From: the human T2T-CHM13v2.0 reference genome, Homo sapiens
Length of the DNA stretch: 64,000 bases
Direction: 5' to 3' (one strand)
NCBI RefSeq assembly: GCF_009914755.1
Contig: NC_060926.1
A model generated the notes under the pieces. That model made no database searches and was not told the origin of the DNA. It saw nothing but the letters and a program-made list of their open reading frames with translations. Made by a program: the position numbers and the translations under genes. Positions 49,922 to 52,907 of this stretch are shown here, piece after piece (position 1 is the first letter of the stretch; each line of letters starts with the position of its first letter).

Positions 49922-50120
49922 ATGCTGCCTCTCCTGATCATCTGTCTCCTGCCTGCCATTGAAGGGAAGAACTGCCTCCGCTGCTGGCCAGAACTGTCTG
50001 CCTTGATAGACTATGACCTGCAGATCCTCTGGGTGACCCCAGGGCCACCCACAGAACTTTCTCAAAGTATTCACTCCTTGTTCCTAGAGGATAATAATTT
50101 TCTCAAACCCTGGTACCTTG
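49922..50120 (+). CDS. TEX51: TEX51 coding exon 1 (signal peptide, CLRC motif); alternative donors after 50066 and 50120
   Basis: Hydrophobic N-terminus [15 protein letters not shown]; donors AAA|GTATTC (50067) and TTG|GTGAGG (50121), both phase 1. Confidence 0.9.
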
Positions 50121-52405
50121 GTGAGGCACAGCCAGGAGATCAGGGATTGGATGTGGCCTCTTTACCTGACCTGGGATCTTACTCCCTTGACTTCCCTTTG
50201 ACCTGTATCTCATCCTCAGATCGTGACCATTTGGAAGAAGAAACAGCCAAATTCTTCACTCAAGTACACCAAGCCATTAAAACGTTACGAGATGGTGAGG
50301 AAGCCAAGAGCCCCAGGGCCTTGGGGCTTGGGTTGACAAAGGCCCACCCTCCAAGGCATTCTCAGAGGCCCATGTGGCCATGGGTGGGAGGTCTTGTGAA
50401 GGTGGGAGATGAATGCAGTCTGTCTCCGTGTGCTCTTTGGAACTTCCATGTAGAAACAAGGGTCTGAAAACCCAACCTTGAGCAAGTTGTAACCCTGAAC
50501 ACCCCTTCCCTCCTGCTCTACCCAGATAAAACAGTACTTCTGGAAGAGATCTACACGCACAAGAATCTCTTTACTGAGAGGCTGAATAAGATATCTGATG
50601 GGCTGAAGGAGAAGGGTAAGGGGTGGGGACGATCCCTGCACACGGCCTAGCCCTCCACACCTGCCAAGACCCAAGGCATGCAGATTTCACTCTGCAGCCC
50701 CCTCGATCATCCCCAGGAGCCCCACCCCTCTCCATGAATGCCTTCCCGGCTCCATCTCCTACTTGCACCCCAGAACCCCTTGGCTCTGTCTGCCTCCCCA
50801 GCACCTCAGTTTCTCTACCTTCTCACCCTCCCTGGCAGCCTGCAATGAGTCCTGTGGTGAGTATGCATGGGGACTGGGCCTGGGGGAGGGATGAAAGGCA
50901 CCTGGCACCCCCTAGCCCCTGTCCCTCCCCTCCCATAGACATACAGTCCACACTGAAGGTCACCAGCTGTGCTGACTGCAGGACTCACTTCCTCTCCTGC
51001 AATGACCCCACTTTCTGCCCAGGTCAGTGGCCACCACCCTGTCCAGCCTCTCCCCTCCCTGCCCTGCATTTCTGGAGCCATTGCTGTCTCTGTCATTCTC
51101 TTTTGCCCAACTCAAGCTTTTCTTGTTCTTTATCCTCACCCTGGGTGAAGGCAGCACCTTCTGGGATTTCTTGATGTCCTCATGTCAAGCTCCAGAGCCC
51201 CTTGGAGGCATCTGCCTGTAGGACATCACTCATGGAGGCCTCTTGGTTCTCAGAGATGCCATGCCTAGAAACATGACCAATCCTTACTCAGGAGGCTGAG
51301 GCAGGAGAGTCGCTTGGACCCGGGAGGTGGAGGTTGCAGTGAGCCGAGATCATGACACTGCACTCCAGGCTGGGCAACAGAGCAAGACTCTGTTTCAAAA
51401 AAAAAAAAAAGAAAGAAAAAAGAAAAGAAAAAGAAAAATGCCCAATCCCATCGAACCCCCAAACCTGTTCTTCCTCCAGGGCCGTTCTCAACAAATGGCC
51501 CCACTCAAGCCCTCAGTCTCCTAAACCAGGAATCTCCCTCCACTTAGCACGGAGAATCACCATGTCTTGCTAAATAAGTCTTCTATGTGTTCCCATAGTT
51601 TCATTCTAACCTCCACTCTCAGGCCTCCTCATCTCTCATCTAACTTACAGCAACATTTCCCATTAGCCTCCCTGTCCCTCCAGGCCACATCACACTCTGA
51701 ACTTCTTCTCAACGAGCAAGTCTACCCATGACACTCCCTGCTTATAACCAGCAGTGGTTCCCAAATGCCCCTAGAGAAAGCCCACCCTCCTCGGGAGCCC
51801 CCTACTCCCCAGGCACACTAAGTGCATACAGGCAGCTCCATACCTCTATCCTTGAGCGTGTCCTGTGCCGGGGACACAGCCTTGCCCTTGAACTGATCCC
51901 TTATTTGTGTTTCCAAGTCCAGCTCAGACTCCTGTTTTCTAAGAAGCTTTCCCTGATCAGCTCCCACCCCAGAGGCTTGTCAGCCATCCTCACTGTCACT
52001 TCCCCTCCCATGTCCTGTCCTATTTCCCTTGAACCCCACACCATGATTGTTTGCTTGTCTAGATATGAGCTGGGCGCACAGCGTGCTCAGTAAGTGTTTG
52101 CAAACACATCATGAGTGAACGAATCAAAGAATGAGAGGATGGTGGCCTTCTCTCTGAGTTGAGGTAGCCCTGCCTGGCCTCCAAACACCTGGCTTCCTCT
52201 TTCACACCCCAGCCAGGAACCGGCGGACCTCCCTGTGGGCTGTGAGTCTCAGCAGTGCTCTACTCCTGGCCATAGCTGGAGGTGGGTGAGTGACCTCTCC
52301 AAGCCCCAGCATCCCCAGGGAAGACACACCTATTCCCTGACTGACTCCACCCTGTTTCTTGGCCCAGATGTTTCTTTTACTGGCAAAGGAAGAAGGAGGC
52401 AGTAA
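49922..52405 (+). CDS. TEX51: TEX51 short isoform (166 aa): join(49922-50066,50220-50294,50526-50615,50939-51022,52213-52281,52368-52405)
   Basis: 501 nt = 166 aa + TAA. Reads ...TELSQ/NRDHLEEE...KEK/DIQS...[16 protein letters not shown], matching my recollection of the database TEX51 protein. Confidence 0.8.
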
Positions 52406-52907
52406 AGGTACTGGGAAAGGAGACCCCGACCCAATTCTAGGGCTCCCAGAGGGAAAAGCTGGGTGTGCCCTGGGAGTCTCAGGGCCTGGAACCCCAGTGC
52501 TGACCTCCTGGGGTCTGGCGTGCAGAACAGAGTGGGATCGAGGGCCAGGACTCTCAGGAGTGCCACTCATCAGCCTCCATATATGCAGACATATTGGGGC
52601 CAGGGGCCCAGGACACAGAAATGGCAAAGCTCCAGGCCTCCCATCCTCACTACAGAGTGCTCTTCCTCCCAGCTGTCCCTGTCCCCTGCACACCCCACCT
52701 TCACCCCTGCTGCCCTGCCCTGACCCACAGGGACCATTAGCATGGCTGCCTTGCCCTCTGCTCTGGGTTGGGTTTGGCCAGGGGAGACTCCCAGGAGGAA
52801 GTTAGAGAGACAGGGAGGAGGCCAGAGTAGTGGGAGGTCAGGGTAGAAATGCCCAGCTTCTTCTCCCTCAGCAGGAACAGGGCAGCCCGCATGTCTTCCA
52901 GAAGTGA
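49922..52907 (+). CDS. TEX51: TEX51, reconstructed full-length isoform (204 aa): join(49922-50120,50220-50294,50526-50615,50839-50856,50939-51022,52213-52285,52368-52407,52872-52907); signal peptide + Izumo-like Cys-rich helical ectodomain + TM + short tail
   Basis: ATG in cagaagATGc (A at -3). All introns are GT..AG with pyrimidine tracts and the frame is continuous: [22 protein letters not shown]...[86 protein letters not shown]. Gene identity is from recalled TEX51 sequence. This exon combination is my inference. Confidence 0.7.
50220..50294 (+). CDS. TEX51: TEX51 exon 2 (75 nt)
   Basis: atctcatcctcAG| acceptor, ATG|GTGAGG donor; encodes [24 protein letters not shown], an amphipathic helix-like segment. 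Confidence 0.9.
50526..50615 (+). CDS. TEX51: TEX51 exon 3 (90 nt)
   Basis: cctgctctacccAG| acceptor, AGG|GTAAGG donor; encodes [29 protein letters not shown]. Confidence 0.9.
50839..50856 (+). CDS. TEX51: TEX51 18-nt microexon encoding (A)CNESC
   Basis: Long pyrimidine tract ttctctaccttctcaccctccctggcAG|, donor GTG|GTGAGT, symmetric phase 1/1; supplies a CxxxC motif. Confidence 0.75.
50939..51022 (+). CDS. TEX51: TEX51 Cys-rich exon (84 nt)
   Basis: ccctcccctcccatAG| acceptor, CAG|GTCAGT donor; encodes [27 protein letters not shown]. Confidence 0.9.
51285..51437 (+). mobile_element. 5'-truncated Alu (right arm only) in TEX51 intron
   Basis: tactcaggaggctgaggcaggag... with A tail; degenerate TSD gaaacatgaccaatcc / gaaaaatgcccaatcc. 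Confidence 0.9.
51560..52130 (+). mobile_element. L2 fragment in TEX51 intron
   Basis: Ends gcacagcgtgctcagtaagtgtttgcaaac...gagtgaacgaat, like the L2 3' end. Confidence 0.55.
52213..52285 (+). CDS. TEX51: TEX51 TM exon; tandem donors after 52281 and 52285
   Basis: ttcctctttcacaccccAG| acceptor; GAG|GTGG|GTGAGT donors; encodes [22 protein letters not shown](G). Confidence 0.85.
52368..52407 (+). CDS. TEX51: TEX51 penultimate exon (40 nt), readable in two frames
   Basis: cctgtttcttggcccAG| acceptor, AAG|GTACTG donor; frame A gives [12 protein letters not shown], frame B gives [14 protein letters not shown]. Confidence 0.8.

What the first reader, a model, noticed from the sequence alone, without database searches (positions are those of the whole stretch)
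49922..52907. TEX51 reconstructs as a complete IZUMO-superfamily type-I membrane protein (204 aa), a candidate sperm fusion/adhesion factor
Using the distal exon-1 donor, the microexon and the 52286 donor gives this layout: signal peptide 1-15; C18xxC21; ~100 residues of amphipathic helical segments (IZUMO1 has ~109 between equivalent cysteines, forming a four-helix bundle); C123xxxC127; C138xxC141; C148; C154; TM ~163-185; QRKK; short tail. Predicted disulfides are C18-C138, C21-C141, C123-C148 and C127-C154. The Ig-less layout resembles IZUMO2/IZUMO3/TMEM95 rather than IZUMO1/SPACA6. The testis-expressed name is consistent with this. Homology is inferred from cysteine pattern and topology only.
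Basis: partly seen in the sequence, partly recalled or inferred. Interest (0 to 1): 0.85.

Follow-up and report, generated by a model that had tools for sequence, protein, structure and literature searches.

The report
TEX51 long isoform: Ig-less Izumo-domain protein
The 204-residue splice form of the human testis gene TEX51 is a real, conserved membrane protein of the IZUMO sperm-protein family, but this was already published in 2025, and mouse knockouts point to a role in shaping sperm rather than an essential role in fusing with the egg.

Summary
Observation confirmed. The signal peptide, eight cysteines, TM segment and QRKK tail sit where stated.

Dupuis et al. 2025 (PMC12615630) and an Andrology 2025 knockout screen (PMC12917576) already describe TEX51 as an IZUMO1-like four-helix-bundle plus hairpin type-I protein. 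Knockout males still fertilise eggs.

My own checks:
- The eight cysteines are invariant in 34 of 34 aligned orthologues.
- Pfam IZUMO (PF15005) matches 46 of 60 eight-cysteine orthologues in one register. Only 6 of 60 reach the curated cut-off, and the human-like form scores 16.3 bits against 25.
- TEX51 shares its exon architecture with IZUMO1-3, all in phase 1: 75 / 87-90 / 18-21 / 81-84 nt. This includes the CxxxC microexon, which TMEM95 also has. I found no paper on it in three searches.
- The RefSeq-selected 166-aa isoform drops this microexon, drops 18 conserved residues, and frameshifts the TM segment.

Novelty: already known. Interest low.

The parts
49881..49921 (+). 5' UTR of TEX51 (the longest annotated exon-1 start)
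   Evidence: Hub annotation. The ATG at 49922 opens the frame.
49922..50120 (+). Coding exon 1 with the distal donor: signal peptide 1-15, C18xxC21, the very conserved [17 protein letters not shown] block, and residues 49-66. Ends in phase 1.
   Evidence: The donor TTG|GTGAGG lies at Pfam IZUMO profile position ~56, in the same place and phase as the exon-1 donors of IZUMO1, 2 and 3.
50067..50120 (+). The 54 nt (18 aa, [18 protein letters not shown]) lost when the proximal donor at 50066 is used, as in the RefSeq-selected transcript
   Evidence: The proximal donor AAA|GTATTC matches 5 of 9 consensus positions against 6 of 9 for the distal donor. The segment is as conserved as its neighbours: mean identity 0.62, with S49, F54 and L66 invariant in 14 of 14.
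50220..50294 (+). Exon 2, 75 nt, phase 1-1, helical region residues 67-91
   Evidence: The inferred exon 2 of IZUMO1, IZUMO2 and IZUMO3 is also 75 nt.
50526..50615 (+). Exon 3, 90 nt, phase 1-1, helical region residues 92-121
   Evidence: The matching exon is 90 nt in IZUMO3 and 87 nt in IZUMO1 and IZUMO2.
50839..50856 (+). 18-nt microexon encoding (A)CNESC: C123xxxC127 plus an N-x-S sequon. Skipped in the RefSeq-selected transcript.
   Evidence: acceptor with 12 of 15 pyrimidines, donor GTG|GTGAGT. Homologous microexons of 18-27 nt that end one base after the second Cys were found in IZUMO1, 2, 3, 4 and TMEM95. The sequon is present in 13 of 14 eutherian orthologues.
50939..51022 (+). Hinge exon, 84 nt, phase 1-1: C138xxC141, C148, C154, ending one codon after the last Cys
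   Evidence: The matching exon is 81 nt in IZUMO1, 2, 3 and TMEM95, with the same start and end relative to the cysteines, except that TMEM95 runs two codons past the last Cys.
52213..52285 (+). Exon 6 with the 52285 donor: juxtamembrane residues and the first part of the TM helix. The alternative donor at 52281 shifts the frame.
   Evidence: The 52285 donor gives ...[15 protein letters not shown]...; the 52281 donor gives ...[16 protein letters not shown] and a stop. Both donors match 7 of 9 consensus positions.
52368..52407 (+). Exon 7: end of the TM helix (to W185) and the QRKK stop-transfer motif
   Evidence: W164 is invariant in 14 of 14 and nearly invariant (at least 90%) in the 34-sequence alignment; W185 is invariant in 14 of 14.
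52872..52907 (+). Coding part of exon 8, a NAGNAG acceptor pair at 52872/52875 giving 204 or 203 aa. Stop codon at 52905-52907; 3' UTR runs to 53100.

Best explanation
The eight-exon splice form of TEX51 is the ancestral, conserved product of the gene. It is a type-I membrane protein whose ectodomain is an Ig-less Izumo domain (IST superfamily). After the signal peptide comes a CXXC-bearing N-terminal segment, then about 100 residues reported in print to form a distorted four-helix bundle. A CxxxC encoded by an 18-nt microexon follows, then a hinge with a second CXXC and two further cysteines, a single TM helix and a short basic tail. It is a paralogue of IZUMO1-4 and TMEM95. This paralogy is shown here by the shared cysteine framework, the Pfam profile matches and a one-to-one exon correspondence.

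The disulfide bonding between the two CXXC motifs and within the hinge is inferred from solved relatives. From the two published mouse knockouts, the protein most likely acts in spermatids and sperm to build or stabilise the acrosome and sperm head (and the flagellar junction). This resembles what is reported for IZUMO3. It supports fertilisation efficiency rather than acting as an indispensable adhesion or fusion factor.

The human RefSeq-selected 166-aa isoform omits two family-defining pieces (residues 49-66 and the CxxxC microexon) and frameshifts the TM segment, so it cannot carry the full eight-cysteine framework.
For: - Splice form: 204 or 203 aa, all introns GT-AG.
- Orthologues: a siamang 204-aa protein is identical at 197 of 204 positions. 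The same architecture occurs in carnivores, cetaceans, perissodactyls, rodents, bats and marsupials. All 8 Cys are invariant in 34 of 34 aligned sequences.
- Pfam PF15005 IZUMO: matched at E<=0.02 in 46 of 60 eight-Cys orthologues, always ending at profile position 143 on the last Cys. 6 of 60 reach the 25-bit cut-off. The match is absent in 3 of 3 eutherian isoforms without the microexon, including a siamang form that differs from P0020 only by those 6 residues.
- ESM Atlas: beyond TEX51's own cluster, the nearest clusters are IZUMO3 (0.95, 0.94), then TMEM95 (0.89) and IZUMO2 (0.85). This is a lead only.
- Gene structure: coding exon lengths after exon 1, all phase 1, are TEX51 75/90/18/84, IZUMO3 75/90/18/81, IZUMO1 75/87/21/81, IZUMO2 75/87/21/81 and TMEM95 57/81/21/81. 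My inferred IZUMO1 and TMEM95 exons reproduce the published cysteine numbering (C22, C25, C139, C149, C152, C165; C35, C45, C105, C109, C128, C134).
- Print: AlphaFold models with a four-helix bundle, hinge and CXXC pair, and isoforms of at least 190 aa with an intact bundle (PMC12615630). The mouse AlphaFold DB model is noted as IZUMO1-like (PMC12917576).
- Function: one knockout gives over 80% head malformations with normal litters. The other gives 4.1 vs 7.2 pups, loosely attached acrosomes, and 73% vs 14% acrosome-reacted sperm.
- Protein evidence: TEX51 was detected in a macaque sperm proteome.
Against:
- The human-like form P0020 scores 16.3 bits against PF15005, below the 25-bit cut-off.
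- Single exons match no Pfam family (0 of 5).
- No IZUMO1, SPACA6 or TMEM95 chain appears in five PDB sequence searches at E<=10.
- Neither PF15005 nor PF15203 hits the TEX51 locus exon-wise in the genome.
- A TEX51 HMM scores the inferred human paralogue ectodomains weakly: IZUMO1 9.1 bits (3 of 2000 shuffles as high), IZUMO2 7.0 (4), IZUMO4 4.9 (12), IZUMO3 3.3 (23), TMEM95 0.2 (157).
- Outside the cysteine columns, only 5-10 of about 81 residues are identical in exon register.
- A crude amphipathic-helix test was not significant (251 of 1000 shuffles).
- Function: the two knockout lines disagree on fecundity, and the hypofertile one also removes part of the lncRNA Gm44577.
- Which isoform dominates in human testis is unknown to me. 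RefSeq selected the 166-aa form.
Confidence: 0.8

Rival explanations
1. TEX51 is a true gamete adhesion or fusion factor working at the egg membrane like IZUMO1, SPACA6 and TMEM95, and its loss is partly masked by redundancy.
For: It belongs to the same superfamily as three essential fusion-associated proteins. In zona-free IVF the knockout fusion index is halved (0.49 vs 1.1) and cumulus-intact IVF falls to 8.4% vs 61.8%. The protein is present in mature macaque sperm.
Against: Knockout sperm do fuse. One line has normal litters (8.5 +/- 2.3, p 0.79). Essential IST factors give sperm that look normal but cannot fuse, whereas Tex51 knockout sperm are malformed and 73% are prematurely acrosome-reacted, which by itself explains the lower IVF rates. 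The IST members IZUMO2-4 are likewise not tied to gamete interaction.
Confidence: 0.12
2. The resemblance to IZUMO proteins is convergent. TEX51 would be an unrelated cysteine-rich helical membrane protein that merely shares a cysteine pattern.
For: Sequence similarity is very weak. P0020 is below the Pfam cut-off. There are no PDB sequence matches. The reciprocal HMM gives 0.2-9.1 bits. Ensembl listed no paralogues in 2020, and a search with P0020 finds no second locus in the genome at E<2.
Against: Five consecutive intron positions coincide in place and phase with IZUMO1-3, with exon lengths equal or differing by 3 nt, including an 18-21-nt microexon that ends one base after the second Cys of CxxxC. 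46 of 60 orthologues hit the same Pfam family in the same register. Published structure models agree.
Confidence: 0.03
3. In humans the main product is the RefSeq-selected 166-aa isoform. It lacks residues 49-66 and the CxxxC microexon and ends in a frameshifted, shortened hydrophobic segment. Human TEX51 would then largely not be an intact Izumo-domain protein, either as a decaying gene or through a regulated splice switch.
For: RefSeq chose this transcript (hub annotation). It has 6 rather than 8 ectodomain cysteines and gives no Pfam IZUMO match at E<=0.02. [quoted passage not shown] TEX51 had the most transcripts (33) of any TEX gene in bovine testis long reads.
Against: The omitted pieces are conserved (mean identity 0.62 and 0.82) and are homologous to constitutive parts of the IZUMO genes. 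Database isoforms without the extension (18 of 169 classifiable) or without the microexon (49 of 129 with a hinge) occur in horse, bear, camel, fur seal and badger as well as primates. This looks like general annotation or splicing variety, not a human-specific loss. I had no expression data to rank the isoforms.
Confidence: 0.15

Closest known systems
IZUMO3 (human locus inferred at chr9:24.55 Mb of the same assembly; the gene name is assigned from my recall of its map position plus Pfam IZUMO hits above cut-off)
   Same: Ig-less Izumo domain followed by a TM segment. Exon lengths match in three of four exons (75/90/18 nt, then 81 vs 84), all in phase 1. The microexon peptide xCSEDC compares with (A)CNESC, with 4 of 6 residues identical. 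Its clusters are the nearest non-self ESM Atlas clusters (0.95 and 0.94). Its knockout is reported to give acrosome defects and hypofertility (as cited by Dupuis et al.).
   Different: There is almost no similarity in the helical exons: 0 of 25 and 2 of 30 identities. The TEX51 HMM scores it at only 3.3 bits. IZUMO3 has an extra Cys at residue 113, and its exon 1 is 9 codons longer.
TMEM95 (solved structure, PMC9546558)
   Same: Ig-less type-I sperm protein with a helical bundle plus beta-hairpin. It has a 21-nt CxxxC microexon and an 81-nt hinge exon in phase 1. Dupuis et al. call it the closest structure.
   Different: TMEM95 has an extra C35-C45 disulfide, while TEX51 has no cysteine between C21 and C123. 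Its exons 2 and 3 are shorter (57 and 81 nt). Pfam TMEM95 (PF15203) matches 0 of 14 eutherian TEX51 at E<=1 and 1 of 4 marsupial ones at E 0.019. TMEM95 is essential for fusion, and TEX51 is not.
IZUMO1 (solved, PDB 5F4E as cited)
   Same: Same eight-cysteine framework: 22CXXC25, C135xxxC139, 149CXXC152, C159, C165 against 18CXXC21, C123xxxC127, 138CXXC141, C148, C154. Same five intron positions and phases across the domain. Highest TEX51-HMM score of the paralogues, 9.1 bits, with the last Cys in register.
   Different: IZUMO1 continues into an Ig-like domain (Izumo-Ig exons lie just downstream) and binds JUNO. TEX51 has only 9 residues between the last Cys and W164, which starts the TM segment. 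IZUMO1 has 109 rather than 101 residues between the first CXXC and the CxxxC.
SPACA6 (solved, PDB 7TA2 as cited)
   Same: 27CXXC30 and 139CXXC142, with hinge disulfides C124-C147 and C128-C153. The spacing almost overlays that of TEX51.

Membership tests
IST superfamily (hallmarks from Vance et al. 2022, PMC9482655, passages) | Distorted four-helix bundle with helices alternating antiparallel and parallel | not testable with these tools
In print, isoforms of at least 190 aa are modelled with an antiparallel four-helix bundle, and the mouse AlphaFold DB model has a four-helix bundle. My crude amphipathicity test was uninformative.
IST superfamily | Triangular face formed by a perpendicular N-terminal helix 1' and two bundle helices | not testable with these tools
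   This needs a 3-D model. It is not described explicitly for TEX51 in the sections I read.
IST superfamily | Two CXXC motifs, one at the N-terminus and one in the hinge hairpin, joined by two disulfides | tested here: met
   Both motifs are present (C18xxC21 and C138xxC141) and invariant in 34 of 34 orthologues. The bonding itself is inferred from IZUMO1 (C22-C149 and C25-C152) and was not tested.
IZUMO family / Izumo domain (Ellerman 2009, as quoted in PMC3432370 and PMC8999778) | Eight conserved cysteines within about 144 residues, with helices between the cysteine motifs | tested here: met
   The eight cysteines span residues 18-154 (137 residues). The spacing 3,102,4,11,3,7,6 is found in 36 of 60 eight-Cys proteins. 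It parallels IZUMO1-3 as reconstructed.
IZUMO family (Pfam PF15005) | Score at or above the curated gathering cut-off of 25 bits | tested here: inconclusive
   The human-like P0020 scores 16.3 bits (E 0.015). 46 of 60 orthologues match at E<=0.02, and 6 of 60 reach 25 bits, the best being 31.4. The human protein itself could not be submitted because it is a spliced product.
IZUMO family | Shared gene architecture (intron positions and phases across the Izumo domain) | tested here: met
   five phase-1 junctions fall at equivalent positions, and exon lengths are equal or differ by 3 nt from IZUMO1-3. The paralogue exons are my inference from six-frame Pfam hits plus splice sites. For IZUMO1 and TMEM95 they are validated by published cysteine numbering.
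TMEM95 family (Pfam PF15203) | Profile match, and the extra helix-1/loop-2 disulfide (C35-C45 in TMEM95) | tested here: not met
   PF15203 is absent from the family list of 14 eutherian orthologues at E<=1. It matches 1 of 4 marsupial orthologues at E 0.019, below cut-off. TEX51 has no cysteine between residues 22 and 122.
Type-I single-pass membrane protein | N-terminal signal peptide, one TM helix, positively charged cytoplasmic flank | tested here: met
   Hydrophobic N-terminus. The only strong Kyte-Doolittle peak lies at 163-185. QRKK (KKKK in the orthologue consensus) follows. No dedicated signal-peptide predictor was available.
Essential sperm-egg fusion factors (IZUMO1, SPACA6, TMEM95 phenotype class) | Knockout sperm look normal but cannot fuse, and males are sterile | not testable with these tools
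   Literature only: knockout males are fertile or hypofertile with malformed sperm. In print, the defining phenotype is not met.

The most novel reading that the evidence does not exclude
The distal exon-1 donor and the 18-nt CxxxC microexon are ancestral, family-defining Izumo-domain exon features shared with IZUMO1-4 and TMEM95, yet both are left out of the human reference (RefSeq-selected) transcript. If so, the reference human TEX51 protein and its AlphaFold DB model misrepresent the gene. Human TEX51 function would then depend on the 203/204-aa isoform, possibly through a mammal-wide splicing switch that turns the disulfide-locked hinge and the membrane anchor on or off. TEX51 and IZUMO3, which share exon sizes 75/90/18, would be the closest pair and might back each other up in acrosome formation.
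Probability: 0.3. Interest if true: 0.4.

Novelty: already known. Interest (0 to 1): 0.2.

Why it matters
The central claim, that TEX51 is an Ig-less IZUMO/IST-family membrane protein, was published in 2025 together with two knockouts, so it adds nothing new to the field.

What this check adds is modest but practical.
- Homology to the IZUMO genes can be shown without any structure model, from a one-to-one exon correspondence that includes a shared CxxxC microexon. Three literature searches found no paper on this.
- The human reference isoform of 166 aa lacks two of the eight framework cysteines, lacks 18 conserved residues, and has a frameshifted membrane anchor.
It would probably be missed without deglycosylation.

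Tried and rejected
- Single-exon searches (the only way to submit the human sequence itself): Pfam on 5 exons gave 0 families at E<=10. The hinge exon against PDB gave 0 hits.
- PDB sequence searches: profiles of 14 and 34 orthologues and the two single orthologues P0052 and P0155 found no IZUMO1, SPACA6 or TMEM95 chain at E<=10. The best hits were driven by the TM segment or were chance (CaSR, FAM155A, Kv1.3).
- Profile search of the 5.8-billion-protein database: 239 hits at E<=10, of which only the best 120 are shown. None of the 120 was named an IZUMO or TMEM95 protein (most are named TEX51, a few carry other or no names). The unseen tail may or may not hold IZUMO proteins.
- Amphipathic-helix periodicity on the alignment: observed 0.16 against a shuffle mean of 0.12, with 251 of 1000 shuffles as high. 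Uninformative.
- The idea that loss of the exon-1 extension and the microexon is a primate-specific decay: rejected, because such isoforms are also in the databases for horse, bear, camel, fur seal and badger.
The spliced human protein could not be handed to any tool, so the siamang orthologue P0020 served as proxy wherever a whole protein was needed.
- A search of the window's own genome with an alignment was not accepted. The single protein P0020 found only the TEX51 locus.
- SPACA6's gene could not be located with Pfam Izumo-Ig, so its exon structure is not in the comparison.
- Rfam on 43000-55000 found nothing.
- Supplementary PDFs of PMC12615630 (Supplementary Table 1 on isoforms, Supplementary Figs 2 and 6) could not be read. 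They may already show the 203-aa isoform model, and perhaps the gene structure.

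
Full report
**What is in the sequence.**
The exons are 49922-50120, 50220-50294, 50526-50615, 50839-50856, 50939-51022, 52213-52285, 52368-52407 and 52872-52907. The neighbouring acceptor at 52875, a NAGNAG pair, gives 203 aa. All introns are GT-AG. The RefSeq-selected exon set gives 166 aa.

- After nine more residues comes a hydrophobic stretch from W164 to W185, then QRKK and a 19-residue tail.
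- I enumerated 24 combinations of the annotated alternative sites. Only the distal exon-1 donor plus the 18-nt microexon keeps the full eight-cysteine spacing (190, 203 or 204 aa).
- Only the 52285 donor keeps the TM segment and basic tail in frame.
- The 55-nt alternative acceptor at 50802 truncates the protein at 118 or 136 aa.

**The claim is already in print.**
A full-text search for TEX51 found 19 papers.

- Dupuis et al., Commun Biol 2025 (PMC12615630). I read the abstract, introduction, results, discussion and one methods section, and searched two spreadsheet supplements. [quoted passage not shown]
- They note that UniProt lists isoforms of 52-203 aa, and that the three isoforms of at least 190 aa have the intact bundle. 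The canonical 166-aa form is modelled as a two-helix bundle with two poorly predicted helices.
- An Andrology 2025 knockout screen (PMC12917576, passages) also notes the IZUMO1-like bundle and hairpin in the mouse AlphaFold DB model.
- As late as 2020 TEX51 was listed as having no known paralogues in Ensembl (PMC7436996, passage).

**Independent sequence checks.**
The spliced human protein could not be given to the tools, and single exons find nothing in Pfam (0 of 5) or PDB. Exon 1 by reference retrieved 109 database proteins at E<=0.01, most named TEX51 (a few are unnamed or carry other names).

- One of these is a 204-aa siamang protein, P0020, identical to the human 204-aa form at 197 of 204 positions. 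I used it as proxy.
- The same eight-exon-type protein is present in carnivores, cetaceans, perissodactyls, rodents, bats and others and in marsupials. Mouse is 60% identical (113 of 189).
- All eight cysteines are invariant in 14 of 14 and 34 of 34 aligned sequences.
- The two pieces missing from the reference isoform are conserved: mean identity 0.62 for residues 49-66 and 0.82 for the microexon.
- Pfam IZUMO (PF15005) matches 12 of 14 orthologues at E<=1 and 46 of 60 eight-cysteine proteins at E<=0.02. Every match ends at profile position 143 on the last cysteine.
- Only 6 of 60 reach the 25-bit cut-off (best 31.4), and P0020 scores 16.3 bits.
- The human 166-aa and 180-aa isoforms and the siamang form lacking only the microexon give no match. 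So the microexon carries part of the family signature.
- Two of four marsupial proteins match PF15005 weakly, and one matches PF15203 TMEM95 weakly.
- Beyond TEX51's own cluster, the nearest ESM Atlas clusters are IZUMO3 (0.95, 0.94), then TMEM95 (0.89) and IZUMO2 (0.85). The 166-aa form gives a similar ranking. These are leads only.

Results against the reading:
- No IST chain turned up in PDB sequence searches with two profiles and two single proteins.
- A crude helical-periodicity test was not significant.

**New here: shared gene architecture.**
The window's genome is held, so I searched it in six frames.

- Pfam IZUMO hits four loci exon by exon. Pfam TMEM95 hits one. Pfam Izumo-Ig hits just downstream of the first IZUMO locus.
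- I read splice sites and frames around these hits and looked for the missing small exons. From this I inferred the coding exons of the Izumo domain in each gene.
- The reconstruction reproduces the published cysteine numbering of IZUMO1 (22, 25, 135, 139, 149, 152, 159, 165; compare).
- It also reproduces that of TMEM95 (17, 20, 35, 45, 105, 109, 118, 121, 128, 134; compare).
- The names IZUMO2, IZUMO3 and IZUMO4 for the other loci rest on my recall of their map positions.
- All junctions from exon 1 through the 3' end of the microexon are phase 1; the hinge-exon donor is also phase 1 in every gene except IZUMO4 (see table).

| Gene | Exon 2 (nt) | Exon 3 (nt) | Microexon (nt) | Hinge exon (nt) |
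|---|---|---|---|---|
| TEX51 | 75 | 90 | 18 | 84 |
| IZUMO3 | 75 | 90 | 18 | 81 |
| IZUMO1 | 75 | 87 | 21 | 81 |
| IZUMO2 | 75 | 87 | 21 | 81 |
| TMEM95 | 57 | 81 | 21 | 81 |
| IZUMO4 | 81 | 72 | 27 | ends in phase 2 (by eye, from the frame) |

- Each gene has a tiny exon that ends one base after the second cysteine of the CxxxC motif (CxxxxC in IZUMO2). Each hinge exon ends one or two codons after the last cysteine.
- The microexon peptides are: TEX51 (A)CNESC, IZUMO3 xCSEDC, IZUMO2 xCNPKLC, IZUMO1 xYCPNKC, TMEM95 xLCPPAC, IZUMO4 xRIDCQHRC.
- The distal exon-1 donor of TEX51 falls at Pfam profile position ~56, where exon 1 of IZUMO1-3 also ends, in the same phase.
- This correspondence argues strongly for common descent.
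- Searches for izumo with microexon, micro-exon or intron phase found 0 papers. The unreadable supplementary PDFs of Dupuis et al. might touch on it.

Sequence similarity itself is thin:
- A TEX51 HMM scores the inferred human ectodomains at 9.1 bits (IZUMO1; 3 of 2000 shuffles as high), 7.0 (IZUMO2; 4), 4.9 (IZUMO4; 12), 3.3 (IZUMO3; 23) and 0.2 (TMEM95; 157).
- In exon register only 5-10 of about 81 non-cysteine positions are identical.
- P0020 finds no second locus in the genome.

**Function.**
This rests on the literature, not on my tools.

- One Tex51 deletion line had normal litters (8.5 +/- 2.3) but over 80% malformed sperm heads.
- The other line also removes part of the lncRNA Gm44577. 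It gave 4.1 vs 7.2 pups, cumulus-intact IVF of 8.4% vs 61.8%, and a zona-free fusion index of 0.49 vs 1.1.
- That line also showed loosely attached acrosomes (25.9% vs 2.8% abnormal heads), 73% vs 14% acrosome-reacted sperm, and cytoplasmic remnants.
- Sperm still fuse, unlike IZUMO1, SPACA6 or TMEM95 mutants. The authors liken TEX51 to IZUMO3.
- TEX51 protein was detected in macaque sperm.
- I therefore favour a role in acrosome and head formation or stability, with reduced fertilisation as a consequence. An accessory role at the egg membrane is a minor rival.

**Open points.**
- The disulfide map is by analogy. The hinge pair may follow SPACA6 or the crossed TMEM95 pattern.
- I could not measure which isoform dominates in human testis. 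Isoforms lacking the extension or the microexon are in the databases for many mammalian orders, and cattle testis shows 33 TEX51 transcripts. Splice variety is therefore general rather than human-specific.

**Verdict.**
The family assignment is supported but already known. The fusion-factor label is not supported as an essential role. The added value is the exon-architecture evidence and the warning about the reference isoform.

Noticed in passing
window 50121-50219: Intron 1 (from the distal donor) is 99 nt, in frame and free of stops, so retaining it inserts 33 residues. The ORF from 49922 stays open to 50467 (181 aa). Database proteins from macaque (P0026) and several rodent-like representatives carry such an insertion.
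   Followed up: partly
window 44101-48825 (minus strand): The lncRNA LOC105373603 lies head-to-head with TEX51, with its first exon ending about 1.06 kb upstream of the TEX51 start (49881). This is the same arrangement as mouse Gm44577/Tex51, which Dupuis et al. describe as mouse-specific. I could not test whether the two lncRNAs are related.
   Followed up: no
window 50839-50856: The microexon carries an N-x-S glycosylation sequon in 13 of 14 eutherian orthologues, but marsupials have CSESC, CSPSC or CSQTC without it.
   Followed up: partly
window 51281-51445 and 51397-51438: There is a masked repeat in intron 5 whose sequence reads like the 3' part of an Alu with an A-rich tail (my judgement; no repeat-family tool was run). 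The tail is reported as a tandem repeat of period 11 or 18. No link to the gene's splicing was examined.
   Followed up: no
window 52063-52202: This is an annotated alternative exon. In macaque an insertion at this position is read through in frame (P0016, [18 protein letters not shown]...). By eye, the human sequence at 52063-52202 appears to reach a stop in that frame; I did not translate it with a tool. The bases after 52202 are not a GT donor, so the listed end is probably a transcript end or part of a longer exon.
   Followed up: partly
G000 chrX:27270521-27270625 (L011) and chr10:73449189-73449473 (L012): Weak six-frame matches to Pfam IZUMO (E 1.7 and 7.6, with stop codons inside). They are probably chance and were not examined.
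   Followed up: no
literature: TEX51 had the most transcripts (33) of any TEX gene in bovine testis long reads. A Cervidae study reports positive selection of TEX51 in Cervini. A selscan preprint lists the 100-kb window holding TEX51 among chr2 XP-EHH (CEU vs YRI) windows, with a score of 3.63.
   Followed up: no
TMEM95 locus, G000 chr17:7260163-7260267: Two in-phase acceptors precede the TMEM95 hinge exon, giving 105 nt or 81 nt. Only the 81-nt version reproduces the published cysteine numbering (C128, C134). The upstream AG has the slightly better pyrimidine tract (13 vs 12 of 15).
   Followed up: partly
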